Made by a program: the position numbers and the translations under genes. Positions 2,618-63,680 of a stretch of 64,000 nt of DNA are shown here, in pieces. Under the pieces are notes generated by a model. It saw nothing but the letters and a program-made list of their open reading frames with translations, made no database searches and had not been told where the DNA came from. The stretch is from NCBI RefSeq assembly GCF_004010195.1, contig NC_057718.1, positions 96,642,230 to 96,706,229 on the forward strand, read 5' to 3'. Position 1 is the stretch's first letter, and the number at the start of each line of letters is the position of its first letter. The stretch comes from Chiloscyllium plagiosum. Its lineage: Eukaryota.

Positions 2618-2720
2618 CAGCCACAGAAGAGTCATATCGGACTCAAAATATTAACTCTGCTTTCTCTCTCCAGAGGTTCTACCAGACCTGCTGAGTGTTT
2701 CGAGCACTTACTGTTTACTC
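2618..2720 (+). mobile_element. Penelope-like terminal fragment, family C (decayed hammerhead)
   Basis: agaagagtcatatcggactcaaaatattaactctg...accagacctgctgag matches the family C consensus. Confidence 0.65.
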
Positions 2721-3699
2721 TCCGCTGTCTGAGGGCCAGAGGTGTGTACAGTAAACTAAACCACTGAAATGGGTTTTAATTGGATTCATTAGCCTCCCCC
2801 TTTCTCATCTCTGGTTTGCTTTTTTCATTTGTTGCGGCTTCATCTCCACTGGGCAACAAGGGGGTTAACTAACCAGGTTCTTGACCTCTGCTGTGTTTCA
2901 TCGAAGAGTGTAGAGCTTCTTAACACCAAAACAGATGTAAATCTGGCACGTCAGCTTGGTTTCCATGGCAACGCATGCATTGAAATCATAGATATTCCAG
3001 CACAGAAGTCTGCCATTTGGGCCCACCACAATTTCTGTTGGTGTTCTTCCATTCCCAATCCCAGGGCCCTGCTGTTTCTCTCTACCCTTCGATATTTTTC
3101 TCCTCCAAGTGTTTATTTAATTCCCTCTTAAATGTCATGATTGATGAGCTTCAATTGCCACTTAAGTATTACCAGGAGTGCTAATGTATTCCATATTCCA
3201 ATAATCCTTCGCAAAATTAAATCTTCCAACTCCTCCTTTATCCTTCCGGTAATAAACTCAGAGTTCTGCTCCTGTGTTACTGATTAATCTTAGGATGGTT
3301 TACCATCTAAAGCCACTCAACATATTTGGGAACGTTTTAAGGAATGTTCCTTAACCTTATGTTTGATAGTGAAATAATAAATTCATTTCCAATCTGCAGT
3401 CAAAAGTATATTTGTCAGTCTGAGTGGATATTGTCTACCTTCAATGGTTCCAATAGGTCTTTTGGAACAGGGAGAGAGAGGAGTCAATATTCACTGGCAT
3501 CTCTTCCATTCACAGGGCAATTAAACTCCACCGAAAGTGACCTGTTTGAAAAGACATTGACACAAACCATCAAAAGTGGCAACAGGATGCCCTGAAGCAA
3601 TTTTTTAAAAAACCCAGGATTTGAATAGATGTTACAATCAGATTAAATTATATTAAACTTATGTGGTACCCTGGTTGGACCACACTCAACCACAATTCA

Positions 3700-4008
3700 G
3701 TGGGTGGCAATGGGAATGTCACTGGACTACCAAATCCAAGATTCCAGCTCAATGTCCTGAGGACATGGTGGATAGTGAAGATTGAGTTTGATAAAATCAG
3801 GGCTAGAGAGCTGGTGACCATGGTGACTATTGTTATTAAAACCCCTTCTTGATCACTCATGTCCTTTAGGGAAGGAAACCTGCCATTTCTACCTGGTCTG
3901 CTCTGCACTTGACTCCAGACCCACAATAATGTGGTTAATGTGGTCAATTAGGAATGGACAATATATGCTGGTCTAGCCAGCGATACCCTGTGAACAAATA
4001 AATAAAAA
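3700..4008 (+). mobile_element. tRNA-derived SINE family B
   Basis: core tcctttagggaaggaaacctgcc...cctggtctg...gactccagacccac plus LINE-like tail. Confidence 0.8.
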
Positions 4009-4267
4009 CAGTTCTGTTTGGTGGTCATAGAGAATATGAACCATCTGGGGTATGAACAAAAAAAAGGATTCACAAGGATGACAAAGAATTGAGGAACATT
4101 GTTTGACCTTCTTAAGAACATTGGCACCTTCATGAAACCAATAGTGCGTCCTAACAAAGTGCATAACTTTGTAGGAAAAGCAATTTTGTACCTGGAGATC
4201 AGAAGTTGAACAAACCTCTCCAAAATGCAGCTTCATGCTCAGAAACAGTCATAAATCTAAGCAAAAA

Positions 4268-4600
4268 TCATAGAATCCTTACAGTGCAGGAAGAGGTCAT
4301 TTGGCCCATTGAATCCACACTGATTCTTTGAAGAGCATCTCACCCAGACCCAGCCCTATCCCCGTAATCCTGCATTTCCTGTGGCTATTCCACCCAGCCT
4401 ACATGTCTCTGGATACTATAGGGCAATTTTTAGCATGGCCAGTCCAGCTAACTGCAAATCTTTGGACTGTGGGAGGAAACCGGAGCACCCGAAGGAAACC
4501 CACGCAGACACGCAAACTCCACACAGACAATCACCCGGTGGAATCAGACCTGGGCCCCTGGTGTTGTGAGGCAGCAGTGCTAACCACTGAGCCACCGTAC
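4268..4600 (-). mobile_element. HE1-type SINE
   Basis: reverse strand reads ggtggctcagtggttagcactgctgcctcac...ggattctatga. Confidence 0.9.
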
Positions 4601-5044
4601 CGCTCGTGTGGAACAGAGTCAAAATGCTGAACTGAGTCAGAAATCGACTTTTCTGTGCGAAAATGAACGATCTGATCAAAACGTCTCGAGAGTGGACGGT
4701 AATACTTAAAAACGATAGTACACCGCAAGCAAATGCGTAACGGAGTCAGGAAACCAACCTTGCATCAGAAAATCAAAAAGCAACAACATCCTCAGCAACG
4801 TCCAAAATTACAAAAATAATAGTACACCTCAAACCATGCATAACTGAGTGAGAAAATCACCTTTGCACTATTAAATCAAAGGTTTGCGCAAAAATGTGAG
4901 ACTTTGACAAAAATAATAGTGGAACTCAGCAAAATGCATACCTCAGCTGAAAAGTCAACTTTCAGGAAAGCTTGAGCAGGTTAGGTTATGTTTTTCTGGA
5001 AAAGAGAAGATTGAGAAATGACCTGGTTGAGAGTTTTATAAGAA

Positions 5045-5290
5045 CATTGGTGGCAAAGTCACTGGACTAGTGCACCCACAGCCCAGGTTAATGCAGCATG
5101 TACACACGTTCAAAGCCCACCACAGCAGCTTGTGGAATTCGATTCATAATAACATCTAGAGTTTTAAAGCTTGTCTCAATCAATGATGACCAGAAAGCTA
5201 TTCTTGATTTTTATAAAAACTCCATCCTCTGGAAATCTGCGAGCATTACCCGGGCTGGACTATATGTGACTCCCGACACACAACAATGTT
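5045..5290 (+). mobile_element. tRNA SINE family B, decayed
   Basis: gtcactggactag...gttcaaagcccaccacagcagc (B-box-like)...tgtgactcc. Confidence 0.65.
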
Positions 5291-5429
5291 CTTTATTGCT
5301 GTGGAGGGCATTTAGAGTAATTGGAGATCTTGAAAAAAAAGAATGAATTTGTTCAGATAGGTGCGATGAAATTGTTTCCAGTTAAGCGCATGTCTAAAAT
5401 GTCAAACCGCACATATGACAGTCACCAAA

Positions 5430-5728
5430 CAATCCAGGTGAAAGCAGGCCATTTGATTCATCAAGACCTTCCAAAGACCATCCCGCCAGACCCACCCTAT
5501 CCCTGTAACCCCACATTTTGCTTGGCTAATCTACCCATATCTGGACACTCTGGGCAATTTAGCATGGCCAACCCACCTGACCTGCACATCTTTGGACTGA
5601 GGGACGAAACCGGAGCACCCGGAGGAAATCCACGCAGACACGGGGAGAATGTGCAAACTCCACACAGACAGTCACCCGAGGCTGGAATCGAACTTAGGAC
5701 TGTGAGGCAGCAGTGCTAACCACAGAGC
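5430..5728 (-). mobile_element. HE1-type SINE
   Basis: reverse strand has the tRNA head and the conserved central domain. Confidence 0.85.
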
Positions 5729-6271
5729 CAAGATATAGGAACTCAGACAAAATGTCTTTACCCAGAGAATGGTGAGAATGTGGGAGTTGCTACCACAGGG
5801 AGTGGTTGAGGTGAATAGTATAGATGCATTTACAGGACATTTAATGACCAGAGGGAGAAAGAAGCCAAAGGCTATAAGTTCTGTATAATCTGACAGACGT
5901 GTATCACTGCTCTCTTGAAAGCTCATTGCAACCAGAACAAATTAATTAGTTATAGAATGGAAGAACTGGTGTAAGGCATAATCGAGAAAATGCACCACTG
6001 AACACAAATTGGATTTGCTGTATTTTAGATGTCTGTAATTGTGGGTACTTGATGTGTCATTCAGCAGGAATCTTGAGAGGGTGGATGAACATACCAAAGA
6101 CTCCGAGTAAGTAACTCTTTAGAGCTCAGCTTTTGGTGGCAATGTCATAACCTACATATTAAAGGAAAGACGCAAATTAATCTCACAAGCACGTTTAGAT
6201 TCTTTATGACAACAAATTACTTGGAGCAGCAATGACTGCTTTAGCTCCATGTGGCCCCATTCAGCCAGTTG

Positions 6272-6852
6272 TAGAGTCACAGAGACATACAGCATGGAAA
6301 CAGGCCCTTTAGTCCAACCAGTCCGTGCTGAACACAATCCCAAACTAAACCAGTACCACCTGCCTGCTCCTGGCACATATTCCTCCAAACCTTTCCTATT
6401 CATGTACTTATCCAAATATTTTTTAAATGCTGTAATTGTACCCACATCCACCACTTCCTCTGGAATTTCATTCCATCTGTGAACCACACTCTGTTTAAAA
6501 AACTTTGCCCCTCATGTCTTTTATAAATCTTTTTCCTCTCACCTTAAAAATGTGCCCCCTAGTCTTGAAAATACCCCTCCTAGGAAAGAGGCAACCACTG
6601 TTAACTCTATCTGCACCCCTCATTATCTTATAAATTTCTCTGAGGTCGCCTCTCAACCTGCTATGCTCCCAGCCTATCCCGCCTTTCATTATAACTCAAG
6701 CCTTCCATTCCCGGCAACATCTCTGTAAATCTCCTCTGAACCCTCTCCAGCTTACTAATATCATTCGCATAACTGGCCGACCTGAACTGGGTGCAATATT
6801 CCAGAAGAAGCCTCGCCAATGTCCAGTATAACCCCAACATGACATCTCAACT
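6272..6852 (-). mobile_element. CR1/HER1-type LINE 3' fragment
   Basis: ORFs 6152-6487 and 6495-6689 (RLRGDLREIYKIMRG; WNEIPEEVVDVGTITAFKKYLDKYMNRKGLE). Confidence 0.9.
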
Positions 6853-8032
6853 CCAAACTGAGCCCAGCGCTAAGAACTGGATGGTCGCGGTTGCATTCGA
6901 AAGAGATGGAAAGCTGTGGGTGAGAAAACTATTGGTGCAACTATCCTGCAAACTGTCCAAACATGCAAAGCCGACTTGTGACGCATGATGGTTGCTCTCT
7001 TGGGCATATTTTGATTTTATAAGAATATTGGGACGTATGAAGTGTTTGGGGGTGGGATGAATGTTGGTGGTGATGGGTGAAAGTTGGACTTGGCACAGGC
7101 GTGTGAGAAAAAGCTGTTCTACCAATATTTCTATTTCAATCACCATTAAACGATCTCACTGGCTACTGTTGTATTTGATTAATGGCCAACAAGTAGCTTT
7201 AAAATATTGATTGCCTTCACAGCTGGATTAAGTACTTGGCAAAATAAGTCCACTGCCCAGTATATTTTGGATCAACCTGCATTGAAATTCTGCAGTTTGG
7301 CATTGAATAATTCCTTGCACTGACACGTTGCATTACCAAATATTAATATACATATTAATCATAATTCTTTGTTGTTTTTCCCCCGACATCAGCACTCACA
7401 CTTAAATAGAGAACCTGCTGGCACAGGAAATGATGCAAACATTGCAGGAACTGTAACAAAACCACGATCTCAATGGACTTAGTCTCAGCAAACTCAGAAC
7501 AGGTGTTAAAACCAAAGAAAATATATTTCAAGTGAGAACCAAAACCATTCAAAAATATTTTTAAATATGTTTTTCCTTAAGGAAACTTGCTGGCAAAGCC
7601 AGCTTGTGTTGGGTTTTTTTTTAATGCTCTGCTGTAGATTAATTTAAAGCGGTAACGGGATTCAAGGTTAAATAGCGATCCGTTATTCTTGCTGAAGTCA
7701 GATACAAGGACGTGGGGAGCCATTCTGTCTGATGAGCTTAACCCATTATGGAAGGCAACATTGCTGTGCATTTTACATATCCCAGAGCAATGCGCAGATA
7801 ACAAGAGATGTTAAATGTGCAACAGGTTTGCAGATTTGCCTACAAGTGTCTGATAAATACAAAATGCCCACACTCACCTTTACAGTTTGGCTTCTAACGG
7901 CTTCTATGGTATCTGCTTACTTTGCTCTGAGTCAACATCCAGGCTTAACTCAACAAACACAGTGAGCATAGATAAGTTACCAAGCACAGTTACCAAAAAC
8001 ACATAGTCAAACACAAAATAAATGAGCACTTG

Positions 8033-8355
8033 CCAGTGGCTCAGTGGTTAGCAATGCTGCCTCACAGCACCAGGGTTTGATTCCATCCTCTGACTGCTGT
8101 CTATGTAGAGTTGCACATTCTCCCCATATCTGCATGGATTTCCTCCCACAGTCCAAAAATGTGCAGGTTAGGTGGATTGACAATGTTAAGTTCCCAATTA
8201 GTCCAGGGAAGAGCATTATTCCCACAGTGGATTAGCCGTGGGAAATGCAGGGTTATGGGGAGGGGGTGGGGTGTGGTGGGATGCTTTTTGGAAGGTTGAT
8301 GTGGAATCGATGGGCCAAATGACCTGCTTCTATACTGTATGGATTCTATGATTCT
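8033..8355 (+). mobile_element. HE1-type SINE
   Basis: A box tggctcagtgg, B box gtttgattcc, tail ggattctatgattcta. Confidence 0.85.
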
Positions 8356-8431
8356 AATCTGTTGCAAACTCAAATAAGAATAAGCCCCAGCACAACCACA
8401 GTTTTAAAGATAAATAAAATAAAACTGAGGG

Positions 8432-8525
8432 AAGTTACTGAAGAAAGATCACTGGACTCAAAACATTAACTCTATTTTCTATCCCCAGAAGCTGCCAGAC
8501 CTGTTAAGTTTCTCCAGGTTTTTTT
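8432..8525 (+). mobile_element. Penelope-like terminal fragment, family C
   Basis: ctgaagaaagatcactggactcaaaacattaactct...gctgccagacctg. Confidence 0.7.
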
Positions 8526-9064
8526 TGTGCGTTCCACTATTGAAGTGAATCCTGTTTTAAACACCATCCATTAGGAAATGATCCACCTTTCCAACTGATA
8601 AAGATTTTCTGTGTTATATCTTATCGGCAATCAATAATTGAGTTACTTTTCTCCTGACATAGCGACGGAAATCTTGTTGCAGGTTTTATTCTCATAAGAT
8701 TGGGAGGAGGGCACATATGGAATGCATCAAGTTTCCCAACTGCATCACTGTGATATGATGGTGCATGAAAATTGCACGTGTGAGTTTTTAAACATTCGAC
8801 ACTGCAAATCCTGCAATTTCCAGTTGCAAATCTATATGACGTCATCATAATGGATGATGCTTAAGGCAGACTATTAAAGACATGTCTCTTTTCCATTATG
8901 AAGATACGTTGGTACTTTTAATTTCATTTACCACTGAACTGTAAGGTGCATGGTTGCATGCACATGTGTAGAGTGGCTTGAGAATTGAGAGGGAATTTAA
9001 ATCTGACCTCCTTCATGTCTCTCACTTCACAAATCAGACAATCCAGCTGTTTCCTGTAGTCAGC

Positions 9065-9159
9065 GCTGAAAATGTGTTGCTGGAAAAGCGCAGCAGGTCA
9101 GGCAGCATCCAGGGAACAGGAGAATCGACGTTTCGGGCATAAGCCCTTCTTCAGGAAGA
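9065..9159 (-). mobile_element. Penelope-like mini-insertion, family A, with 16-bp TSD
   Basis: gtttcctgtagtcagc at 9049-9064 and 9160-9175 flanks the 95-bp insert. Confidence 0.9.
9124..9157 (-). ncRNA. minimal hammerhead ribozyme motif (family A, intact core)
   Basis: minus strand CUGAAGA-A-GGGC-UUAU-GCCC-GAAA-CGUC; palindromic ACGU stem III; predicted GUC cleavage triplet at 9129-9127. Confidence 0.75.
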
Positions 9160-9244
9160 GTTTCCTGTAGTCAGCCATCTTCGGATTTAGAATAACCAAT
9201 CCTAGACTTACAGTTGAACAATCCTCACCATCATTTTAAAAAAA

Positions 9245-9378
9245 AATCTGAAAGAATTGCTGCTGCTGTAAAACAGAAACAAAGATAAAAATTGCTGGAA
9301 AAGCTCAGCAGGTCTGGCAGCATCTGTGGAGAGAAATCAGTGTTAACGTTTTGGGTCGAGTGACCGTTCCTCAGAACT
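9245..9378 (-). mobile_element. Penelope-like terminal fragment, family C
   Basis: reverse strand gttCTGAGGAacggtcactcgacccAAAAcgttaacac (GAAA mutated to AAAA). Confidence 0.75.
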
Positions 9379-11139
9379 TGTTTCTCATCACTGGACTGTA
9401 GCTTAAACAAAAGATTTAGCAGCGTATTAACAGTAGAATAACTTATTAGATCAAAATTAAACAACAAAGTAAAACTAATTGGTCTATGCTATCAACCCAA
9501 AAATCTTTGTTTTCAGCCCCATTCATACAAAAGACAGACAAACAAACACAGTTCAGGGATAATTAAATAAAAATAAGAACATTGGCAGATTAATTCAATG
9601 GTTTTCATGATGGCTTGCTTCACAGATACCAGTTTATTGACTGATTTTTTTTTTGAAGATGTTTATCAGTTCACTCAGATAGAGGCAGTCATACTTAAAA
9701 CTTCAGTTTCTATTGCCTAAACCTCCAAGAGCTGATAAAGGAGGTTCGGCTGAGAGCTTTCAAATCTTTATGGTGCAGTATCAACAACGAGATTCCTTCT
9801 CCAAGGAACCAAAGTCCAAAACCCAATTCAAACACGGACCACTCTCTGACAGATTGACCATCTCCTCCATGAAGTTGCAGTTATCATTCAATATCTTCCT
9901 TCTACTGGGCATAATGTTTCTTCCAGACTTGCTGGAACCAATTTCCAAGTACTGACCATATTAACTACCAATTTTTGCTATTGTTTAAATGTAATGCTCT
10001 TGCCCAGTGACAAAGCGTCTGAACCTTTTGATCAGGGACCAACTTGCAAATAAATTTAACTTTCATATCTCCAATATTGGAGGGTTACTTGATGTATATC
10101 TTTAATCTTAAGTGCAATGCCCCTCATACTATGTAGATATACTATTGTTGACCATAGTTCATCCTTTGATAATGTAGTGTCACTTGGACCAATGTTTGTG
10201 ATGACGTAGATGTCAAAGTGCCATGATAATATGGTCTGGATTACCCAGTTCCAATTTGAAAACTTTAGGGTTTTCCTCTATTGTAACCCAGTTAATAGAT
10301 GAATCAATTACGACAAGGGCTCTGTTCCCTCCTGTTCTTCAAATAATAAGACGGGAACTTTTATTTCCATCAGAGCTGGCCAGTAGAACATTATTGGCTT
10401 AGCATTTTATAGAGAGTAGGCCTCCAATATTCTGGAAGGATTTTCTCAGTACTACATTGAAGCCAGTCTAGATTATAGTGCTAATGTTTGCCAAGGCTTT
10501 AAGTGTCATTAAGACATTATAAATAATCAAGTTCACTATAAAGTAATACACCTTTATCTGTTTTTTTGCAAACTGAAAGCTTCCTTTAATTGCTTGCAAT
10601 TGGTTAATAAGAAAGGAATAAATTGACTTTCAGTTCAAAAACCCCACTCATTTCCTGCAGCTCTCAGGACTGTGGCTAAACCATGTTTTTCTGTTTGCAA
10701 AATTTACAACCTCTTTATCTCAACCTGTGTTTGAAAAGTACAACGATGGAACATTAAAGACTGGGCTGAAATATTATAGCTCTAAGCATGTCTGACAATT
10801 GTATAAATCAGCCAAGAACACAACTCTTATATCTTTCAATAGCTGAACTTTTCGAACACTGTTATTTAATCAGAGTCAATAAAATGTTGAAAGATTTAAG
10901 CTGGCTAGATTATTTTAAAAGGCATTGCATCCTGCTTGACCTGTTTTATCAGAACATTGTCGCAGTTTCTTTTCAGGACAGAATTCTTTCTCTACCAATT
11001 GTTTGCTCCACACCCCCCTTCTAACTCCTGACCTTTGATAAGTACCTACTCCATGCAGGGATATGGTTCAGTCCATTCCAGTTGCTTGTGATCACTTGCC
11101 CAAAGTTAAAATTTCTACAGTTGCCCACAAATTACTCTC

Positions 11140-11350
11140 TTGTTGGTGGGTTTGTGTTGGAGATTCCCGCACCGTCAAAGTTAATTCAGTGCTGTTTCCT
11201 GCCGGAACTGACACTGTTGTCTTCTTCAGCTTCTCTGCATTGAGGCAGGTCCAACCCACCCTCCAGCCACAAGATAGGGTAAGGAGATGGGCCCAACTCC
11301 TTCTGCCCTTGGGAACAATCTGATCCAACTGTCCAGCCAACTGAGTCATG
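11140..11350 (-). mobile_element. tRNA-derived SINE family C, decayed
   Basis: reverse strand gactcagttggctggacag head; similar to 24610-24810, 36860-37065 and 41890-42080. Confidence 0.5.
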
Positions 11351-11395
11351 ACGCCCCAGCCAGGTTATTGTGCACACACATTTGCATCCATATTA

Positions 11396-12260
11396 TAGAG
11401 TCATGCAGCATGGAAACAGACCCTTCTGCCCAACTCGTCCACGTCGACCAGGTTTCTTAAACTCAACTAGTCCCACTTGGCTCATATCCCTCAAGGGAAA
11501 GTGAGGACTGCAGATGCTGGAGATCAGCGTTGAGAGTGTGTTGCTGGAAAAGCACAGCAGGTCAGGGAGAATCCGAGGAGCAGGAGGATCGACATTTTGG
11601 GAATAAGCTCTTCATCAGGAATGACGGGCTTAAGCCTGATATGTTGACTCTCCTGTTCCTCTAATACAGCCTGACCCGCTATGCTGTTCCAGCACCACAC
11701 TCTCAACTCATATCTCTCCAGACCTTTCCTATCAATATGCTTGTTCAAATGTCTTTATAATCGCACCAGCTTCCACCACTTCCTCCGTCAGGTCATACAC
11801 GTACCATCTTCTGTGTGAAAATGCTGCTCCTAGGGTCCCTTTTAAATCTTTCCCCTCTCATCTTAAATCTATGCTCATTAGTTTTCGACTCCCCTACCCT
11901 GGGAAAAAGAGCTTGATTATTCTTCTTATCCGTACCCCTCCTGCTTTTCTAAACCTCTATAAGGTCACTCCACAGCCTCCCACAGGCTGTAGCCTGTCCT
12001 GATAACTCAAACACCCCAGCCTCAGTAATATTTTCTGCACCCTCTCCAGTTTCATAACATTCTTCCTATAGCAGGGTTACTCGAATTATATGCAATACTC
12101 CAAAAGTGACCTTATCAATATCTTGTAACATGACATCCCAACTCCTGCACTCAATCCTCTGACCAATGAAGGCAGCTGGACCTCATGGAATCTGAGTTCC
12201 CTGACTGGGGCTGTTAATCTGACAAACACCTTCTTCACTACCCCATCATCCTGTGTTAGT
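11396..12260 (-). mobile_element. CR1/HER1-type LINE 3' fragment, interrupted by a PLE insertion
   Basis: tail tgactcta at ~11396-11403; ORF2 remnants such as YKILIRSLLEYCI. Confidence 0.85.
11495..11706. mobile_element. Penelope-like inverted-repeat insertion, family A
   Basis: head-to-head arms; imperfect TSD ctcatatccctcaag / ctcatatctctccag. Confidence 0.8.
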
Positions 12261-12344
12261 AGAGGTTTTAATTTCCTTTTCGTTGCATGCTTGACCAAGA
12301 ATCTCTGTTCTTACCATGTCACATTGGTGCCATATTAGAAAGAT

Positions 12345-12583
12345 TTGCAGACTGCTACTCAACTGAGTTAACCATTCACCAAGTCACCCTTTATTTACAC
12401 ATGAACAGTCCTTGACATTGGTACTGGCTCAATCAGAGTCAGGTACCAGAGTGTCAGTATCTCCAACACTCGTCCTTTTAATCTGTCAGCCAGGGCTCCC
12501 TGATTGCACCAGATTAATGGCCCCAAATTAGGGAACTCAGTTTTTATGGGGTCCAACTAGGTGACCTCATTACAATCACTGCA
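12345..12583 (-). mobile_element. solo LTR
   Basis: reverse strand begins TGcagtgattgtaatgagg; inverted ccctgatt/aatcaggg pair; AATAAA; homologous to 51790-51999. Confidence 0.65.
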
Positions 12584-12614
12584 TCAATCTGCTGGGCCGC
12601 GGTATAAATACACC

Positions 12615-12715
12615 AAGAGCTCTGAAGGAGAGTCATCGCACTTAAAACATTAACTGTTTCTCTCTCCACAGGTGCCGTCAGACCTGCTGAGTTTTTCCAG
12701 CTTTCTCTGTGTCTG
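12615..12715 (+). mobile_element. Penelope-like terminal fragment, family C
   Basis: ctgaaggagagtcatcgcacttaaaacattaactg...cagacctgctgag. Confidence 0.65.
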
Positions 12716-13099
12716 TTGTAAATATGCCTTCCTTGGTCATCCAGTCCTGGTTCAAAGGTGATGATTAGCATCCACTGAACCATAAGATTCCAATTCACTT
12801 GCCAGGCAAATTGGGTTTGGAGAAATACTTTTAGGGAGGAGAGGATCAACTGATAATCAAAAGTGAGGAGATGTAAAGAGGCAGATTTGAAGTAATAACA
12901 CAGAGAACCAATTTTACTGTGTTTACCTCCTCAAAAATGAAAGTTAATTTTTCTATCCCCCTTTGAACCCATTCAAAACCCACCTCCTTGTACACAGGCC
13001 TTTAGTGCTGGCAGTTAGATGACCATAGGGCGACAAGAGAGCCGAGTCTGATCTTGTGCTCGCCCTCACAGACTGACAGAATGGCTGCAACACTGATGG

Positions 13100-16830: not shown

Positions 16831-16914
16831 TCTTAGGATGAGGTAAGGTAAGGCAACAATGTCTATTGAAAAAAAATTAACAAACAAAAACCATGACTAA
16901 TGAACTATTGTAGC

Positions 16915-17447
16915 TTGTAGCTGAAAACAAAAAAAAATGCTGAAGATCACAGCGGGTCAAGCAGCATCGGTGGAGAGGGAGCAAGCTAATGGTTTGAGTC
17001 TTAGATGACCTTTCATAGAGCTGACATGAAGTGTGGAGGGGGCAGCATTTATGCAATGGTGGCAGAGAGAGGTGGAGTGCTGGGGGTGAAAGGGTGTTGA
17101 TAATTCAGATTAAATAATCGGAATGTGAAAATGACAGAACAATGGTGCGTCTAACTGGCAGACTGGAAAGAACAGACAATGTCACTGAAGTAAGAGAGGA
17201 GAGAGGACGTGGTGACAGAGAATATAACAAGTAAAGCTAAAACAAAGGGAAGGAATGGGAGTGGGTTCCCAGTTTGAAGGCGTTGAACTCAATATTAAGT
17301 CCAGAAGGCTGTAAAATGCCCAGTCTGAAGCTGAGATGCTGGTCTTCCAACCTTCACTGTGATTCACTGGAGCATTGCAGCATGCTGAGGACAGACACAT
17401 GCGCAAACGAGCAGCATGCTGTGTTAAAATGATCGACTACCGGAAGA
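16915..17447 (-). mobile_element. Penelope-like element 3' part: GIY-YIG C-terminus plus family-C-like terminus
   Basis: reverse translation LPVVDHFNTACCSFAHVSVLSMLQCSSESQ*RLEDQHLSFRLGILQPSGLNIEFNAF. Confidence 0.8.
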
Positions 17448-46097: not shown

Positions 46098-46099
46098 CT

Positions 46100-47919: not shown

Positions 47920-48018
47920 AGAGTCCAGAGAGTGTTGCTGGAAAAACACATCAAGTCAGGCAGCATCTAAGGAGCAGGGAAGTTGATGTTTTGGGCATAA
48001 ATCCTTCATCGGGAATGA
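47920..48018 (-). mobile_element. Penelope-like family A terminal fragment
   Basis: gagtgttgctggaaaaacac...ttttgggcataaatccttcatcgggaatg. Confidence 0.75.
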
Positions 48019-50526: not shown

Positions 50527-51303
50527 GGAGAAAGTGAGGACTGCAGATCCTGAAGATCAGAGTCAAGAGAGTGGTGCTGGAAAAGCACAGCAGGTCAGGC
50601 AGCATCCGAGGAGCAGGAGAATCGATATTTCGGGCATAAGCCCTTCATCAACAATGAGGCTTGTGGGCCGAGGGGCTGAGAGATAAATGGGAGGGGGATG
50701 GGGTTGGGTGATGGTAGCTGAGAATGTGATAGATGGATGGAGGTGAGGGAGATGGTGATAGGTCAGAGAGGAGGGTGAATTAGATAGATAGGAAAGGTGA
50801 TGGACAGTTCAGGAGGGCAGTGCTAAATTGGAGGCTTGGGACTGGGTTAACATGTGGGGAGAAAAAATGGAGAAACTGGTGAAATCCACATTAGTCCCAT
50901 ATGGTTGTGAGGCGTTCTTCCTCCAGGCGTCGGGTGGTAAGGGTTTGGCAATGGAGGAGGCCCAGGACCTGCATTTCCTTGGTGGAGTGGGAGGGGGGAG
51001 TTGAAGTATTCAGCCACAGGCCAGTGGGGTTGGTTGGTGTGGGTATCCCAGGGATGTTCTCTGAAACGATCTGCAAGTTCGCGTCCTATCCTGCTGTTGT
51101 AGAGGAGACTACATTGGGTGCAATGGATACAGTAGATGACATTGGCAGAGGTACGGGTTAATTTATGTACAATGTGGGAGGACCCTTTGGTGCTTGGACG
51201 GTGGTGAGAGGAGAGGTGTGGCCGCAAGATTTGCAATTTCCTGCAGTGGCAAGGGAAGGTGCCGGGAGTGGGGTGTGGGCTGGTGGGGGGGCATGGATCT
51301 GTG
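50527..51303 (-). mobile_element. Penelope-like element 3' part: GIY-YIG endonuclease remnant, 3'UTR and family A terminus
   Basis: TSANVIYCIHCTQCSLLY...GRELADRFREH...PVAEYFNSP, then SHSTKEMQVLGLLHCQTLTTRRLEEERL, followed by a degenerate hammerhead in sense. Confidence 0.9.
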
Positions 51304-51732
51304 CTGTTAGTGTGTAGGGGGGTCATGAGTAACATCCTGCCGAAAGTCAATAATAGGTTCCTTGGTTTTGCCAGCATTGAGAGCTAGGTTGTTCTCAATG
51401 CACCATTTTTCCTGGTCTTCCACCTCCTGTCTGTAGTCTGTTTCATCACCATCTGAGATTTGACCAACTATTGTGGTGTCATCAGCAAACTTGTAAATGG
51501 CATTAGTCTGGTATTTGGTGACACAGTCACGGGTATACAGTGGGTACAGTAGGAGCTGAGTACACACCCCTGGGGTGGCTCCAGTGTTGAGTGATAGTGA
51601 GGATGAAATATTGTCCCCAATCTTCACTGATTGTGGCCTGTGGGTCAGGAAACTGAGGATCCAGTTGCAGAGAGTGGGGCTTAGTCCGAGATCACTAAGT
51701 TTTGTAATCAGTCTCGAGGGGATAATGTTTCT
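51304..51732 (-). mobile_element. Rex1/Babar-type LINE RT fragment
   Basis: [32 protein letters not shown]...[26 protein letters not shown]...[22 protein letters not shown]. Confidence 0.85.
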
Positions 51733-53212: not shown

Positions 53213-53449
53213 AAGACATGATTCAGAGATGTTTCTCATCAAGGACAGAGGCAGGGAAGGAGGGACAAGGAAGGGGAGAAGAAAGAATAAAAAGAAAGGG
53301 ATGTGATAGCCAGGTGAGTCGGACTGCAAGTGATGATAGTGTGAGGCTCCAGAAGATGACAACAGAACAAATAAAAGAACCCAAGACAGATCTAGAGGAG
53401 CTGTGAAGGTCAGCAGCAGCAGCAGATCCATTATCAGTTTTAAAAAGAA

Positions 53450-53612
53450 GAGATTGCTGGAGAAACTCAGCAGGGGTCTGACAGCATCTGTCGAGAGAGA
53501 AGCAAGAGTTAATCTTTCTGAAGAAGGGTCACTAGACTCGAAAAGTTATCTCTAGTTTCTCTCTCCACAGACATTGTCACACCTGCTGAGTTTGTCCAGA
53601 AATTTCTGTTTT
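53450..53612. mobile_element. Penelope-like inverted repeat, family C
   Basis: CTGAAGAagggtcactagactcGAAAagtt between inverted ctcagcagg / cctgctgag arms. Confidence 0.8.
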
Positions 53613-53804
53613 AAGTAATTCTTTGTTCTATTTATTTATAACTACAAATATGTCCATAAAATGAACCTGTGACAGAGACAGCAGTGAATGCACTAGTTCT
53701 CAGTGTTCGTATAAAGGTTGCTTATTTGTAGTACACAAACTGCTAGGTACTAGGGTAGGTTTTACCTTCTACAGTTAACAGCCACCTTTCTGTAAGACCG
53801 AACC

Positions 53805-54110
53805 CACAACGTTAACTCTGCTTCTCTCTACACAGATGCTGCCAGACCTGCAGAGTTTCTCCAGCCATTTCTTCTCTTTATTTCGGATTACCAGCATCCA
53901 CAGTTCCTTTAACGTGAACTAGATTCCACTGTCTGAGAAAACGGCGGTGGAGATTATGATCTGAAATCATTGAGTCTGGAGGGCTGTACCAAAAGTTGGA
54001 TGGCTGTGCCTGAAGCTTCTATTGAACTTCATTGGAACAGCACTCAGTGACTGAGAGGAAGGTTAGAGTGCTCTCGGGTTGGAGAATTAAAGTGACAAGC
54101 AAGTGAATGC
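53805..54110. mobile_element. family C terminus (+) and decayed PLE body (-)
   Basis: aacgttaactctg...gatgctgccagacctg; attgagtctggagggctgt resembles the coding sequence for LQPSGLN. Confidence 0.6.
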
Positions 54111-54584
54111 TCAGTATCAGGCCTGTTTGCTTTAAGTCTTAATAGAAATCAAAGCCCATTTCCTTAATGCAATAAAAGTAAAAGATTGCCCCCTTGTGAA
54201 TGTTCCACATCTCAGCTCATTCCCAGTCTGTTCCCTCGGTATATTTTATATTACAGGCAGCTGTCATGAAGCAGGGAGTGAATATAGTTTCCAGAGAGAC
54301 AGCAGCAGTATATACACAGATGGAAGAACAATGAGACTGGTTGCTTTTGGGCAGTTCAGAAACCTGACCACCTTGGGCAAGACAAACAATGGTGTACATG
54401 ATAAGTGACAGGACCTCAGGAAGCTCTGAGGATCAGAGAGACCTTGTTGTCCATGCTCTCCAGTCCCTTAGGTTGGCGGGACAGATAAATAAAGTGCTGA
54501 AGAAGGCATTTGGGATACTTGCCTTATTTGTCAAGGCATAGAGTTCAAGAGCTGGGAGTTTATGGTTGAATTGTACAAAACTTC

Positions 54585-55265
54585 AGAACAGAAACAGGAA
54601 TTGCTGAAAAGGCTCAGCAGGTCTGGCAGAATCTGTGAAGACAAATCAGAGTTAACATTTCAGGTCCAGGGTGACCCTTCCTCAGAACTGATGGTAGCGA
54701 GGAAAACATTGGTTTATCTGCAGAAGGTAGGATGGGGCGGGGGGGGGGGGGTAAGGAGTAAATGATAGGCGATTGGGGATAGGGCCCAAAGACAGAGAAG
54801 AACTGTTGGACTGACAAAGGAGTGGTTAACCATCTGACTAGGAGAGTGAATAGCTATTAATGGTGACTGTTGGTGGCTAACAATGTGTTGTGTGTAATGG
54901 CAGACTATGTGACCACAAGTCAATACGTGTGGCGCTGGAAAAGCACAGCAGATCAGGTAGCATCCAAAGAGCAGGTGAGTTGATATTTCGGGCATAAGCT
55001 CTTCATCATGAAGGGCTTATGCCCGAAACATCAACTCTGCTGCTCCTTGGATGCTGCCTGACCTGCTGTGCTTGACCAGCCCCACACGTATCGACCCTGA
55101 CTCTCCAGCATCTGCAGTCCTCACTTTCTCCTAATGTGATCACAAGGCCTGGTGTGTGAGGGCCTGGGGCATAGGAGTGTTCAAGCCCTATAATTATTGA
55201 GCTTGATATTGAGTGCGGTGGGCTGTACGGTCCCCAAGCAGAAAATGGGGTAATGTTCTTCCCAT
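54585..55265 (-). mobile_element. Penelope-like family C element, interrupted by a family A inverted insertion (~54919-55131)
   Basis: family C terminus at 54585-54690; TSD atgtga(c/t)cacaag around the insert; GIY-YIG tail remnant at ~55195-55262. Confidence 0.75.
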
Positions 55266-56503: not shown

Positions 56504-58144
56504 CCCCTCAGGCTATCAAAACCAGTCCAGGAAATTAGGCAGACCAAGTGTTAACCCATAACAAACTTCTATATGATCCCACCTCTGCCGCAGCCAAGAA
56601 TTGGTTTAGGTTCTTTATGAAAAAATCAGAACCCACCACAACAGCAGAGGATATATATACCAGAGGCTCACTACTCCATGGGTAAAGAAAGAAAAATCCT
56701 ATTGCTACTACCGTATAATTCAAACTTAAACCCGCAGGCCAAGCACAATGCATTAAGACCAAAAACAACAAATGCTGGTGATCACAGCTGCTCAGGCAGC
56801 ATCTTTGGAGAAAGAGCAAGCTAACATTTCCAGTCCAGATGCTGTGATCTCCAGCACTTGTTGCTTTCAATACAGCTTCCAGTATCAGCAGTGATATGTG
56901 CCTACAATCCATTAAGGACTGGAATTCTCTCTCAGTCACTTCTGTTGGACAGGACACTGACTAGTGAGACCATCTGTCTCTTACCAGCTCTGAGGGGAAT
57001 GTTTTCTTCAGGAGAGATGTTTTCCCGAGCTGGACCCCTCACAGATTTGGGGTGATTCAGTCTTCTGAAAGCGGAAATGTGCTTAAAGCGGTAAACTCAC
57101 GGTATTCCTCAGAATAATGTTTGCAACATAAGGTGCAGATTTAACCATACGAGCAAAGGCACACAGGAAAAGTAATGGCAAAGAAAAAGTAAATGTTAAA
57201 ACCTGGGATTTAACAGTTAGGTTCAGCTGTGACTGATTCACAGAGAGCTGCTGTCCTATTTCTAACTGCAGCAATTCCATTTCTGATAATAGAACCCAGA
57301 GAATGTGAGGCTCAGCCTCATTTATTAGCATTTGTTAAAATGGGACCAAAGTATGTAGCAATTTACAGAAAGATTATTATGCCGTGGGGTTGGGGAGGGT
57401 GGGTTGTGGAGAAACATTAATCATTTGACCAGTCACCTGCACTTGTCTCAGACAGAGTTAGAGTGGTGTAATTAGCTTGTGAAATACCAGGCACCAGGAA
57501 ATCATGAGAAAATAAAATGCATTTAGCAATAATAAGGAGACCAATCACGTCCATCAGATCAATACATCAAAAAGTGAACAAAGTGCAGCAGTTGGTTAGC
57601 AAGTGGAGTTCTGGTGATAACACAGAACAATTTAACATCTCACTTTACGTTGGTGTGCATGTGAAGGCGTTATAATTTTAATATAGCACTTTACATTTTT
57701 ATTGCAACATTATGCCTTAATTTGTTCTGACTTTCCCGGCATTTGGACCGGTGCTGATTTTCTTTCACTCAGCTGTACAAGGTGGGAGAGGAAACATAGC
57801 TTTCATTAATGTATTATGACTGGGATAAGATTTTAAAAGCATGCTGAAAAGAGAAACACATTGCAAAAACTTTTCATCTTGAACTCATCAGGATAAATGC
57901 AACAATGCCAAATTACAAAAAAAAGTATGCCAATGTATACCACAGGTCAAAAGGATGCTAACTGGTTGGCAAGTCAACTCTGATTGTTCAAGGGATTGCC
58001 ATGGGGAAAGAAATTGAGTATGTAGGCTCTCCAATCTCCTAAATAATGCAAAATAGGCAAGAGATTGAACCCAATCCTTAGGTTTGAAGAGAATAGGGCC
58101 CTGCAATTAGATGTTTGTCACTCACAGCAAGTATAAAGTTAGAT

Positions 58145-58430: not shown

Positions 58431-58766
58431 CAAAACGAACCAAATAACAACTGATTCTTTTAGATTGGTTGTTAATGTACCTATTAACACATTTGGGATT
58501 ATTCAGTCAGTGTTGCTATAACATGGAGTTACTTCCAGCATGGAATGTTTTGCTTTGAGTTTTACAAGAGTTTTTTTTTAAATTATAGTCCATACTCTGC
58601 CCAGAGAGATGTGGTGTTTTTTTGTTGAGGTTTGTCCCAAGCAGGGCATGACACAGGACTCGGTGCTCTATAGTCTGTTCCCTGGGACACACACTAAGAA
58701 ACGCAGAGGACCATCAACTCAGTGAAATGTGCTTTTTGGTCCACCACTGTCTTCCAGTGTAAAGAG

Positions 58767-58964
58767 GAGAAAGTGAGGACTGCAGATGCTGGAGATCAGA
58801 GTTGAGAGTGTGGTGCTGGAAAAGCACAGCAGGTTAGGCAGCTTCCGAGGAGCAGGAGAGTAGACGTTGCATTCCTGATGAAGGGCTTATGCCCGAAATG
58901 TTGATTCTTTTGCTCCTCAGATGCTGCCTGACCTGCTGTGCTTTTTCAGCACCACACTCTCAAC
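58767..58964. mobile_element. Penelope-like inverted-repeat insertion, family A, 14-bp TSD
   Basis: tccagtgtaaagag at 58753-58766 and 58965-58978; plus-strand CTGATGAagggcttatgcccGAAAtgtt. Confidence 0.9.
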
Positions 58965-59496
58965 TCCAGTGTAAAGAGTTGAACAAGACCAAGCAAACTG
59001 GCACATTCCAAGGTGCAGGACCAACCACTGAGAGACGCTCGGGGCAGCCACCACCAAGGCGCAGAGGGGAGGAAGACCACCATCTCAGGTCTTTCTACTG
59101 AAGTATAATGAGGATCTGTTCAGTTATCAGACCCAGTCATTGCCTCAATGTACGTAAATGTAGTCCTGCATGAATAAGAAATGCCTTTGGTTTTGCAACT
59201 GCAGAGAATGTAAACTTCAAATGCTTGTTTTTCTTGATATGCAAAGAAAATACAGAACTGCTTTAGTATCTGTGAATGTTGATAAAGGTATTTTGTGAGT
59301 GAAGTATTTTTTGCAACTTTTAAAAAAACTTGCAAACATCCAAAGGAACATGCTATTTGATTTGAACAGATTCTCACTGAGACATTTGACCTACATATCT
59401 GAAATCTAACCAGCACTGATATTGCTGAATTATGTGGTAGACATAATTTGGGATTGACTGCATCACCTTACTGATGGAGGAAGCCACTTGCGTAAC

Positions 59497-61364: not shown

Positions 61365-61690
61365 CTTTATTTCATTTGTTCAAGGAATGCAAGTCTTGCT
61401 GATCTGGGTCCAGCATTTATTACACATCCCCAATTGCGCTGAAGAAGGTGATGATGGGCAACTTTCTTGAACCACCGCAGTCCTTGACGTGTAGAGACGC
61501 CTACAGTGCTGTTAGGGAGGGAGTTCCAGGATTTTACTCCAACAACAGCAAAGAAACGGCAAGCTATTTCCAAGTCGGGATAATGAGTGGCTTGGAGGGG
61601 AACCTGGAAGTGATGGTGTTCCCATGTGTCTGCTGCCCTTGTCCTCTTGGTGGTATAGGTTTGGAAGGTGCTGTCAGAGGAACCTATTGC
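61365..61690 (-). mobile_element. L2/CR1-group LINE 3' end, distinct from HER1
   Basis: KSWNSLPNSTVGVSTRQGLRWFKKVAHHHLLQ followed by the tail shared with SINE B. Confidence 0.75.
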
Positions 61691-61799
61691 CAGTCGTGAG
61701 ACTTGAGTCTCTTCATTCACTCTGGCCCAGACAAGTCAATTATGAGATGAATGGAATCCCACCAAAGGACTTCAGTTAGACATCAACGATATCACTAAA

Positions 61800-62272
61800 G
61801 CTGGAGAGGATACAGATGAGATTTACCAGGATGTTGCCGGATATGGAAGGTTTCATTATAAAGGAAGGCTGGATGTGCTGGGACTTTGTTGCTGGAGTGT
61901 AGGAGGTTGAGAGGCAACCTGGTAGAAGTTTATGGAATAATGAGATAGGGTTGATAGCCGCTGTCTTTACCCTAGGGTTTCAAGACTTGGAGGCACATTT
62001 TTAAGGTGAGAGGAGATAAATTTTAAAAAGACTTGAGGGGCAAATCTTTTACGAAGAGGGCGGTTCATGTGTGGCTGAGCTTCCTGAGGAAGTGGTGGTT
62101 GCGGGTACAATTACAATGTTTAAAAGACATTTGGATAAGTTCATGAATAGGAAAGGTTTGGAGGGATATGGGCCAAGTGCAGGCAGGTGGGACTCGCTGA
62201 GTTTGGGATTATGGTCAGCATGGACTGGTTGGACCGAAGGGTCTGTTTCTGTGCTCTATAATTCTATGACTC
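61800..62272 (+). mobile_element. CR1/HER1 3' fragment
   Basis: ELPEEVVVAGTITMFKRHLDKFMNRKGLEGYGP; tail ctatgactct. Confidence 0.9.
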
Positions 62273-63064
62273 TTTCAACATTTATTTGGTTAATTCAGAT
62301 ACAGAAAAATAAAACAGCACCAATGCTCCTATGGACTGTTCAACACTTACAATAAACATTTTGAAATATGAAGTAGGTGGGAATTTATATAATTGCCCCA
62401 AAGGTAACCCAATGCTGACTAGTTTCTTGTCACCCCATGCTGACTGTATTTCCTTGTCACCCAATGTTAACTGTAGTTTTTCTATCACTCTTTATCATTG
62501 ACTGCAGCAACTAGCAATCCAGACTGTGAGAGCCAGTGAATCCTGAACTAAGTTGATTTGTGAATGAAGGAACGGCTACATGTGGGAAATCTCTTTTACA
62601 CACTGAGTGGTTAGGATCTGGAATGCACTGGCTGACAGTGAGGTGGAGGTAAATCCAACTTGGGCCATTAGAGGAGAATTGGACAGTTATCTGATGAGAA
62701 AATATCTGATGAGAAGGGAAAAGACAGGGGAGTGGGTTAAGACAAGTTGCACTGACAGAAAGCCAGCAAGGACCCAAGAGATCGAAGAGAGCGGAAGGTA
62801 TATATTATCTCAGATTTTATGATGAAAACTAATGGATTTGGGAAGTTTAACTCTGTCTCTGTTTCTCCAACGATGCTGCCAGACTTACGGACCAGAGTTT
62901 CTCGCATTTTCTGATTAAACATTAAAAAATATTACTATATTTATGTTTTGTAAGTGCTACTTGGACAATTAAGACTCCAATTTGCCATGCAGAAAGGGTG
63001 AATACCTTTCTGGTAAGATGGGCAGTCTCTATATTACTTAAGGGCTCAAAATACACTACTTGTA

Positions 63065-63368
63065 CCTTTTGCCCAGGGTGGGGGGAGCCCACAACTAGAG
63101 GGCATAGGTTTAGGGTAAGAAGGAAAAGATTTAAAAGAGACCTAAGGGGCAATATTTACACACAGAGGGTGGTACGTGTATGGAATGAGCTGCCAGAGGA
63201 CATGGTGGAAGCTGGTAAAATTACAACATTTAAAAGACATCTGGATGGGTATATGAATAGGAAGGGTTTAGAGGGGTATGAGCCAAGTGCTGGCAAATAG
63301 GACCAGATTAGGTTAGGATATCTGGTCAGCATGGACGCATTGGTCTATTTCCATTCTGCATGACTCTA
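63065..63368 (+). mobile_element. CR1/HER1 3' fragment
   Basis: TRGHRFRVRRKRFKRDLRGNIYTQRVVRVWNELPEDMVEAG. Confidence 0.9.
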
Positions 63369-63504
63369 TCTGAGGCATGCATTCACCTGTGCATACAGAG
63401 ACAAGTGACCTATCCCTGGCCTGTGGCCACCTTGGCAAAGCATTGTCATGCCCAAATTTCTGGACCTGTGTGTTAATGCCTCTTGTGTAAATAGATTTCT
63501 ATAG

Positions 63505-63680
63505 TTAAAAATCACACAACACCAGATTTAGTTCCAACAAGTTTATTTGGAAACACTAGCTTTCAGAGCTCCACAGTGCTCCGAAAGCTAGTGCTTCCAA
63601 ATAAACCTGTTGGACTATAACCTGGTGTTGTGTGATTTTTGATTTTCTCCACCCCAGTCCAATACCAGCTCCTCCAAATC
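63505..63680. mobile_element. Penelope-like inverted repeat, family B
   Basis: arms aaaaatcacacaacaccag / ctggtgttgtgtgattttt; centre ctagctttc...gctccgaaagctag; CUGAUGA deleted. Confidence 0.85.

What the first reader, a model, noticed from the sequence alone, without database searches (positions are those of the whole stretch)
2618..63680. Three families of Penelope-derived short elements, each carrying a minimal hammerhead ribozyme
Seen: about 25-30 short repeats fall into three families with different flanks but the same core layout. Family A is CUGA(U/A)GA-A-GGGC-UUAU-GCCC-GAAA-CGUC. Family B is CUGAUGA-A-GGAGC-nnn-GCUCC-GAAA-GCU(A/C). Family C is CUGA(A/G)GA-A-GGGUC-ACUn-GACYC-GAAA-CGUU. 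Stem II differs in sequence but pairs in all three, and the stem III position is a 4-nt palindrome (ACGU or AGCU). Established: Penelope-like elements carry minimal hammerheads whose palindromic stem III favours cleavage as dimers. Inference: this genome carries three parallel ribozyme-bearing PLE lineages at high copy number. ACGU versus AGCU stems could form separate dimerisation classes (A and C compatible, B not).
Basis: partly seen in the sequence, partly recalled or inferred. Interest (0 to 1): 0.85.

Follow-up and report, generated by a model that had tools for sequence, protein, structure and literature searches.

The report
Penelope retroelement ends with minimal hammerheads
These repeats are short end-pieces of Penelope-like jumping genes in a likely shark genome, carrying a known kind of minimal hammerhead motif that is predicted, not shown, to cut RNA; most copies begin right at the motif's front edge, which likely marks where the element's RNA starts.

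Summary
The repeats are real: 31 loci in the window (13 A, 4 B, 14 C), 16 of them head-to-head pairs. They are not independent short elements. Each family is the pLTR/tail end of a GIY-YIG Penelope-like retrotransposon (RT also found for A and B; Neptune-type linker). Motif, fold-back pattern and both ACGU and AGCU palindromes were described in 2014. Corrections: A and C are sister families (69% identical); only 5 of 52 window arms have an intact core, none of C; fold-back pairs bury the core in long hairpins; stem I is also intermolecular in a double hammerhead, so A and C are at best one-way compatible. Extra result: 5' ends pile up at the hammerhead's 5' edge, not at its cut site. In subfamily A3, ends at -4 (1,794) outnumber -3 (1,204) and -5 (643); -4 is the A of an initiator-like motif and is preceded by excess G (26 of 50, 26% expected), a likely cap signature. 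The copies are likely run-off cDNAs of uncleaved, capped RNA. The scan noted these elements and the clustering before, on other DNA. Cleavage is untested. New member of a known kind.

The parts
50510..51317 (-). Long family A copy: GIY-YIG endonuclease remnant (50994-51317), 3' UTR, decayed hammerhead core at about 50650, tail
   Evidence: tblastn 51% to the L073 RT+EN frame, E 3.5e-24; core 330 nt after the query end; profile hit 50777-50510
9025..9157 (-). Family A single arm, intact core 9154-9127, 5' end 3 nt before CUGA
33184..33420 (.). Family A head-to-head pair, intact core 33278-33251(-), tail on one arm only, 16-bp target duplication read from the flanks; folds as one hairpin (-194 kcal/mol)
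47493..47628 (-). Family A single arm with tail, intact core 47626-47599, inserted into an arm of a B pair with a 9-bp target duplication
11473..11713 (.). Family A head-to-head pair, decayed
19180..19370 (.). Family A head-to-head pair, decayed
44305..45206 (.). Two family A pairs (44305-44467, 45015-45206) inside a 737-bp local duplication
   Evidence: (D16)
47929..49248 (.). Family A single arm 47929-48019(-), pair 48880-49112 (10-bp target duplication), single arm 49101-49248(-)
54927..55148 (.). Family A head-to-head pair, inserted upstream of the long C copy
58749..58975 (.). Family A head-to-head pair
43223..43399 (.). Family B head-to-head pair, cores 43266-43294(+) and 43256-43228(-), target duplication of at least 9 bp
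39649..39780 (-). Family B single arm with tail; core passes only with two G-U pairs in stem II
47269..47502 (.). Family B head-to-head pair, interrupted at one end by the A insertion
63477..63694 (.). Family B head-to-head pair joined inside stem II; both arms lack CUGAUGA
54577..54839 (-). Long family C copy with upstream 3' UTR, decayed core at 54685
28448..31253 (.). Family C pairs 28448-28666, 29064-29244, 30870-31120 and a fragment 31211-31253; cores decayed
40711..41005 (.). Family C single arm 40711-40797(-) and pair 40841-41005
53444..53912 (.). Family C pair 53444-53615 and single arm 53798-53912(+)
2626..12723 (.). Four C-type single arms: 2626-2717(+), 8438-8519(+), 9233-9379(-), 12612-12723(+); decayed
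56752..56838 (-). C-type single arm, weak (score 25)
16909..17443 (-).
   Evidence: tblastn 39%, E 8e-6; sequence read

Best explanation
The repeats are short, mostly decayed insertions of the pLTR/tail end of several GIY-YIG Penelope-like retrotransposons of likely Neptune type, and their minimal hammerhead is predicted to act only in the RNA of the source elements, likely as a dimer. Shown: each family lies downstream of endonuclease coding sequence; 3' ends fall in two groups about 35-45 nt apart (the tail); B's tail runs into an ATG and reading frame; about half the loci are head-to-head pairs; 5' ends pile up in or just before stem I. Inferred mechanism: the element's RNA is capped and starts at the first base of stem I (position -4, the A of an initiator-like TCAWTC or TCAGTT context in A and C). 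The element's protein nicks the target and starts reverse transcription inside the RNA near the pLTR-ORF junction (as shown in vitro for the anole element). About 95 or 140 nt later it reaches the cap and adds a C, giving a short cDNA that is joined by microhomology to the target or to a second cDNA on the other strand, which gives the fold-back pairs. The template is uncleaved RNA. Longer copies would come from read-through RNA that reaches the downstream pLTR. Odds: Penelope-end identity about 0.95; hammerhead under selection in source elements about 0.85; cap run-off origin of the 5' ends about 0.6.
For: Coding link: 20 of 30; 23 of 30; 3 of 6. L073: 527-aa frame with RT (Pfam RVT_1 E 2.9e-6), CxxxxCxxC linker and GIY-YIG (E 0.013), then an A core; L120: 480-aa frame then a B core; the two proteins are 29% identical. 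Tail: bimodal 3' ends; 17 of 52 distinct B tail ends continue with ATG, 2 into the same reading frame. Covariation across six lineages: stem I AUUC/GAUU (A1), AUUC/GAAU (A3), CAC/GUG (B), AGUU/AACU (C), GCA/UGC (F); C3-G8 replaced by U3-A8 in D (1,029 exact copies); G10.1-C11.1 kept in all. 5' ends within -15..+4 of C3: A 55 of 101, B 20 of 46, C 20 of 49; end rate per nt 0.033-0.039 there, against 0.0025-0.0087 at the cut site and 0.0025-0.006 further upstream. A3 genome-wide: 12,076 cores, 4,677 reach -12; match ends at -3, -4, -5 in 1,204, 1,794, 643. Letter before -4 in the first 100 listed: G 40; 40 of 64 without two recurrent fold-back junctions; 26 of 50 after also dropping 14 G rows that the partner arm can explain (expected 26%, p 9e-5); G before -5 19 of 100, before -3 13 of 100. 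An extra 5' G is the cap mark of full-length L1 insertions (PMC11702581, one passage). Uncleaved RNA is the main substrate in vitro for the anole element (PMC11167929).
Against: No cleavage, cap or start site was measured. Both Pfam scores lie below the curated cut-offs; the clade was judged from the linker motif, no tree was built. The G test covers one subfamily, the first 100 of 1,794 rows, tallied by hand, with rows dropped by judgement; a target preference for G before ATT would give the same excess. Held loci do not repeat it: A1-type T 7, G 3 among 10 non-C letters (long copies of other subfamilies are among them), C-type G 2 of 4. The peak at -4 is only 1.5 times that at -3. B has no initiator match at -4 and its ends spread from 0 to -21. 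RNA reads lie on both strands and show no pile of molecule ends (poly(A) single-cell data, a weak test). The main A subfamily has a U-U mismatch in stem I, and the double-hammerhead fold is 5-14 kcal/mol above the predicted minimum in the A1, A3, B and C homodimers (A1 -10.5 vs -24.1, A3 -14.3 vs -19.5, B -17.7 vs -32.7, C -17.9 vs -29.0). In C the core is better kept than the flank (4.3% vs 10.2%, p 0.003), which could be selection on copies, though subfamily mixing explains it as well.
Confidence: 0.75

Rival explanations
1. Same elements, but the 5' pile-up marks where reverse transcriptase falls off: once it has copied through the protein-bound hammerhead region it loses its grip on the RNA, and junctions then form at short microhomologies. 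The RNA itself starts further upstream.
For: Ends are spread over 0 to -9 in A and 0 to -21 in B rather than at one base. Recurrent microhomology junctions are common (36 of 100 rows at -4, 30 of 100 at -3). The anole protein binds the region that holds the hammerhead and prefers ATT targets.
Against: It does not predict a G excess only at -4 (26 of 50 vs 19 of 100 and 13 of 70), nor the initiator-like context there in both A and C. Target duplications read here share no GATT end.
Confidence: 0.25
2. The short repeats are non-autonomous SINE- or retrozyme-like elements of their own: short masters are transcribed, self-cleave and are copied in trans.
For: Very high copy number; some identical junctions recur (three A copies with one junction; window 43266 and L018).
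Against: Most junctions differ. The same junction recurs in different subfamilies (A1 and A3), as microhomology would give. There is a continuum up to RT-bearing copies, no tandem arrays of the unit, and no 5' ends at the cut site.
Confidence: 0.07
3. One reading: dispersed copies are working ribozymes that pair in trans by their stem III palindrome, giving an A+C class and a B class.
For: Stem III palindromes differ as stated, and B mismatches A and C there. Family sequence is present in RNA reads (1,711 reads laid from one run). C's enzyme strand could pair with A1's substrate strand through four pairs, two of them G-U.
Against: Stem I is intermolecular too, and A on C mismatches next to the cut. 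C is old: 232 exact cores, none intact in the window. Only 37 of 72 A, 7 of 29 B and 10 of 24 C arms keep all 11 catalytic letters; non-CpG decay of core vs flank is 4.0 vs 5.6% (p 0.10) in A and 5.4 vs 7.5% (p 0.25) in B, and core CpGs decay 16-41%. Pairs fold into long hairpins. Published dimers cleave poorly even in cis.
Confidence: 0.06

Closest known systems
Minimal hammerheads (min-HHR) in pLTRs of metazoan Penelope-like elements (Cervera and De la Pena 2014, PMC4209133)
   Same: CUGANGA, one extra base before G10.1, G10.1-C11.1, GAAA, 2-nt palindromic insert, short helix I; several families per genome; single motifs from truncated copies and pairs on opposite strands; U3-A8 variant; AGCU cores in Schistosoma and painted turtle (supplement Fig. 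S3).
   Different: No shark row in the supplement part read (term search of file 2: 0; file 1 not searchable). Counts here (at least 65,598 exact cores in five patterns) exceed the 4,000-9,000 given for coelacanth and Xenopus. Helix II is 4-5 bp, shorter than the 7-8 bp of many listed motifs.
EN+ Penelope-like elements, Neptune group (Craig et al. 2021, PMC8557442; Arkhipova et al. 2013, PMC3846280)
   Same: RT with DKG motif, Zn-finger-like linker, C-terminal GIY-YIG; heavy 5' truncation; adjacent inverted copy; 30-40 nt tail at one end; target duplications; initiator-like motif noted in a rotifer pLTR.
   Different: The passages read do not report 5' ends clustering at the hammerhead edge or an extra G. 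Clade membership here rests on motifs, not a tree.
Poseidon element of the green anole, PAc (Frangieh et al. 2024, PMC11167929)
   Same: Reverse transcription starts inside the RNA at two sites that define the tail, near the pLTR-ORF junction; both target strands are cut and extended; uncleaved RNA is the substrate; hammerhead cleaves only with protein.
   Different: In PAc the ORF starts inside the hammerhead; in family B it starts right after the tail. PAc is Penelope/Poseidon clade.
Small hammerhead variants that cleave as dimers (Lunse, Weinberg, Breaker, RNA Biol, PMID 27858507)
   Same: Short palindromic stem III, association with Penelope-like elements, dimer cleavage (from the review PMC6765202 and the title; paper not held).
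   Different: Could not check whether shark motifs or heterodimers were covered.
Non-LTR retrozymes (bioRxiv 10.64898/2026.07.22.740005)
   Same: Type I hammerheads related to PLE pLTRs; found in one chondrichthyan.
   Different: Defined as head-to-tail tandem arrays; the window's copies are dispersed or head-to-head.

Membership tests
Metazoan PLE minimal hammerhead | Catalytic core CUGANGA and GAAA around a paired stem II closed by G10.1-C11.1, with one extra base after A9 | tested here: met
   27 descriptor hits in 524 kb, 0 in 5 controls; six lineages. Met by 5 of 52 window arms, none of C
Metazoan PLE minimal hammerhead | Palindromic 15.1-16.1 tetramer followed by an NUH cut triplet | tested here: met
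   ACGU with GUC (A, D) or GUU (C), AGCU with CUA (B)
Metazoan PLE minimal hammerhead | Short stem I around the cut site | tested here: met
   4 pairs in A3 and C, 3 in B and F; only 2 pairs, U-U, 1 pair in A1; D seen as AGCU on each side in 3 of 4 and 2 of 4 copies
Metazoan PLE minimal hammerhead | Lies in the pLTR of an RT+GIY-YIG element | tested here: met
   RT seen for A and B, only GIY-YIG remnants for C
Metazoan PLE minimal hammerhead | Self-cleavage as a dimer or with protein | not testable with these tools
   No assay; reads show no pile of molecule ends, a weak test
Rfam hammerhead families | Match to a curated covariance model | tested here: not met
   No hammerhead family among 14 matches at E<=5
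EN+ PLE, Neptune group | Single ORF with RT and C-terminal GIY-YIG | tested here: met
   L073 527 aa, L120 480 aa natural frames; Pfam hits below curated cut-offs; 540 homologues at E<=1e-30, most listed ones with RVT_1
EN+ PLE, Neptune group | CX2-5CxxC linker between RT and EN; DKG motif | tested here: met
   Read in L073 and L114-L120 translations; shared with Nematis
EN+ PLE, Neptune group | Placement in the RT tree with named Neptune elements | not tested
   No named reference set fetched
EN+ PLE, Neptune group | Inverted 5'-truncated partner, 30-40 nt tail at one end, target duplication | tested here: met
   16 of 31 loci paired; exact duplications of 9-10 bp found at 3 of 31 loci (controls: 8 of 500 reach 9 bp), one more of 16 bp read by eye
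Non-LTR retrozyme | Head-to-tail tandem array with a hammerhead in each unit | tested here: not met
   None of 11 tandem-repeat rows is such a unit
Independent SINE-like element | One fixed 5' structure inherited from a short master | tested here: not met
   Varied junctions among 49 A and 32 B arms; continuum to coding copies

The most novel reading that the evidence does not exclude
The Penelope transcript begins at the first base of hammerhead stem I, so self-cleavage would cut off a capped leader of about 32 nt: a self-decapping switch that sorts the RNA between capped template or mRNA and an uncapped, possibly circularised form. The roughly one million short genomic copies would then be cap run-off cDNAs, a strong-stop-like product that maps the start site and the two RT start sites at single-base resolution, and stem I would act as a lineage-specific lock against cleavage by sister families.
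Probability: 0.35. Interest if true: 0.65.

Novelty: new member of a known kind. Interest (0 to 1): 0.36.

Why it matters
As a ribozyme find it is ordinary: this motif class in this place was described in 2014. It matters only through an open question, what the hammerhead does for Penelope elements, given that catalytic mutants still insert in vitro (PMC11167929). This genome holds tens of thousands of near-identical young copies whose ends record the RNA that was copied: uncleaved, and likely capped at stem I. That gives a base-precise prediction for CAGE and for the existing in vitro system. It also gives a natural panel of cores (ACGU or AGCU, C3-G8 or U3-A8, five stem I variants) for dimer-specificity assays.

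Tried and rejected
Rfam scan: no hammerhead family. Pfam on the window's GIY-YIG remnant: no hit at E<=0.1; three other frames are LINE-type RT fragments. Formal pair counting: MAFFT shifted family B by one column, so covariation was read from the anchored table instead. Splice-acceptor explanation of the 5' ends: rejected, the letters upstream of the junctions share no common exon. Cleaved RNA as template: rejected, 3 of 91 A, 1 of 40 B and 4 of 46 C arms start at +24..+33. Sequencing runs: no RNA holder listed. One raw RNA run laid 1,711 reads on both strands, the other none; loose ends peak before -4 in three runs, but long copies of another subfamily that differ from -5 on contribute, so this is not counted as support; two contig sets are only guessed to be RNA. 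The dimer energies with D use a mutated copy and are not interpreted. The count of A3 copies reaching -24 and an equal-length downstream control were not obtained. In one search, two A arms scored as ending at -8 are long copies with a point change, so 31 rather than 33 of 49 end within 9 nt. No intact full-length element with both pLTRs was recovered. Searches for prior print on sharks, on truncated palindromic copies (67) and on start site with hammerhead (91) gave no paper describing these families or the 5' clustering; the library lacks most subscription journals, Repbase and Dfam were not searchable, and the Lunse paper is not held. tRNA scan empty.


Full report
Observation. Exact genome-wide counts are 34,462 for A, 17,799 for B and 232 for C, with 0 for the reversed patterns, in a 3.56-Gb assembly. 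Profiles built from natural copies find 52 arms in the window, 36 loci, 31 at score >=25 (13 A, 4 B, 14 C), 16 of them head-to-head pairs. In 524 kb of sampled DNA (window, 6 neighbouring and 40 fixed-position 10-kb tiles) there are 202 arms at that score, which scales roughly to 1.4 million in the genome (my extrapolation). A strict minimal-hammerhead descriptor gives 27 hits in that sample and 0 in five Markov controls; 5 are in the window, none of family C. Rfam finds no hammerhead. A and C are sister families (68.7% over 131 nt); B shares only the core.

What the repeats belong to. A frame at 50850-51383(-) holds a GIY-YIG-like stretch 330 nt upstream of an A core. Searching the genome with it and examining the 30 loci returned of 150 scored, 20 have an A core 129-367 nt downstream. 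One natural copy has a 527-aa frame with RT, a Cys linker and GIY-YIG, followed by an A core; the Pfam scores are below the curated cut-offs (27.6 vs 29.6 and 16.3 vs 22.6 bits). Its nearest named relatives are from carpet sharks (81-85% and 60-66%) and rays (55-57%), then unnamed or invertebrate proteins at 41-51%, so the host is likely a carpet shark. For B, 23 of 30 loci with the endonuclease C-terminus have a B core downstream, and a 480-aa RT-linker-EN frame precedes one. The A and B proteins are 29% identical. For C, 3 of 6 loci fetched of 531 matches have a same-strand GIY-YIG remnant about 250-270 nt upstream, and one has it inverted. The linker points to the Neptune or Nematis groups (PMC8557442, passages); no tree was made. 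The 3' ends are bimodal in all three families, the tail signature. Of 52 distinct B tail ends 17 continue with ATG and 2 run into the same reading frame, so the copied RNA spanned the pLTR-ORF junction, as in the anole element (PMC11167929, parts 1-2 of 4).

Is the motif a hammerhead under selection? Across lineages, yes: stem I, stem II, the 15.2-16.2 pair and even the 3-8 core pair change on both sides while pairing is kept. Within copies, mostly no. Non-CpG departures from the column's commonest letter, with columns above 20% dropped as subfamily markers, are 4.0% core vs 5.6% flank in 72 A arms (p 0.10), 5.4 vs 7.5% in 29 B arms (p 0.25) and 4.3 vs 10.2% in 24 C arms (p 0.003). Without dropping, the flank figures are 10.3, 8.4 and 14.3% (core 4.0, 5.4, 7.0%) and A is significant too, which reflects subfamily differences outside the core. 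Core CpG letters depart in 16-41% of arms (A, B) and about half (C). Fold-back pairs fold into long hairpins that bury the core.

Dimer classes. In the double hammerhead both stem III and stem I are intermolecular (follows from type I topology). A on C has a mismatch at the pair next to the cut; C on A1 can form four pairs, two of them G-U. A1 and A3 are compatible. Evaluated double-hammerhead energies are A1-A1 -10.5, C-C -17.9, A1-C -8.4, A1-B -1.9 kcal/mol, all above the predicted minimum folds; these are rough. ACGU, AGCU and AUAU cores, the U3-A8 variant and 6-8 families per genome are in Cervera and De la Pena 2014 (PMC4209133; main text parts 1-2 of 4, supplement file 2 part 2 of 3; file 1 could not be searched).

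Where copies begin. Arms start mostly within -15..+4 of C3 (A 55 of 101, B 20 of 46, C 20 of 49), at 0.033-0.039 per nt, against 0.0025-0.0087 at the cut site and 0.0025-0.006 further upstream. Base-level mapping agrees: 31 of 49 A arms end 0-9 nt upstream and 12 reach 39 or more; B ends spread from 0 to -21 with 14 of 32 long (these sets include loci chosen for an exact core). Genome-wide, A3 has 12,076 exact cores and 4,677 matches reaching -12 with a pattern of equal length. Matches ending at -3, -4 and -5 number 1,204, 1,794 and 643 (each with the same filter letter upstream). Position -4 is the first base of stem I and the A of a pyrimidine-A initiator-like context in A and C (consensus recalled). 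In the first 100 rows at -4 the preceding letter is G in 40; 36 rows are two recurrent fold-back junctions; after dropping these and 14 G rows that the partner arm can explain, G is 26 of 50 (expected 26%, p 9e-5), against 19 of 100 at -5 and 13 of 70 at -3 (hand tallies). An extra 5' G marks capped full-length L1 insertions (PMC11702581, one passage). Drosophila Penelope has an internal promoter with an initiator in its pLTR (PMC2377424, passages), and a rotifer pLTR has an initiator-like motif (PMC3846280, passages). Against: held loci of A1 and C do not show the excess in very small samples, B does not fit -4, a target preference for G is not excluded, and RNA reads show both strands and no pile of ends.

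Mechanism and verdict. Most likely a capped RNA starting at stem I is reverse-transcribed from internal sites near the pLTR-ORF junction, uncleaved, and runs off at the cap; one cDNA gives a single arm, two give a fold-back pair. The ribozyme would matter in source-element RNA, where two pLTRs in one transcript, or the element's protein, could assemble it. The identity of the repeats and of the motif is a known kind. The start-site reading is my inference (about 0.6) and was not found in the searches listed. Other papers seen: PMC6155905 and PMC6765202 (passages), bioRxiv 10.64898/2026.07.22.740005 (part 1 of 5 and passages, supplements closed, which may name its chondrichthyan families), PMC12602865 (term search, no hits), PMC10018344 (one passage, not relevant); the Lunse paper was not held. 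The scan's own notes report these elements, the fold-back pattern and the 5' clustering on other DNA (looked up); look-ups for the cap idea and for this place were empty. Interest 0.36; new member of a known kind.

Noticed in passing
L146:7010-7050(+), L157, L161; genome-wide: Subfamily D with UUGACAA instead of CUGANGA (U3-A8 pair) and stem I AGCU/AGCU; 505+524 exact cores.
   Followed up: partly
L147:9095-9138(-), L075, L131, L137: Another Penelope-like family (F) with its own hammerhead (3-bp stem II, 12-nt loop, stem I GCA/UGC); absent from the window.
   Followed up: partly
   Followed up: partly
L118, minus-strand position about 3440: B tail followed directly by ATG and a reading frame that then joins RT sequence; the same start is seen in a second copy.
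   Followed up: partly
G000 C1, listing: Many long A3 head-to-head pairs have cores about 200-280 bp apart, perhaps a second preferred 5' breakpoint.
   Followed up: no
window 44305-45341: 737-bp direct duplication, 99% identical over 300 nt, with T-rich tracts; recent duplication or assembly artefact.
   Followed up: no
window 51310-51744(-), 48229-48714(+), 23717-24082(-): LINE-type reverse transcriptase fragments (Pfam RVT_1 E 2e-5, 5e-10, 0.002); dispersed families D4-D9, D14, D15 look like 3' parts of LINEs.
   Followed up: no
window 19523, 26944, 34827, 35776, 46693, 59597: A further dispersed 93-nt repeat family (D13), not identified.
   Followed up: no
L162:8592-8629(-): A-type core with a compensatory stem II (GAGC/GCUC); single copy seen.
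   Followed up: no
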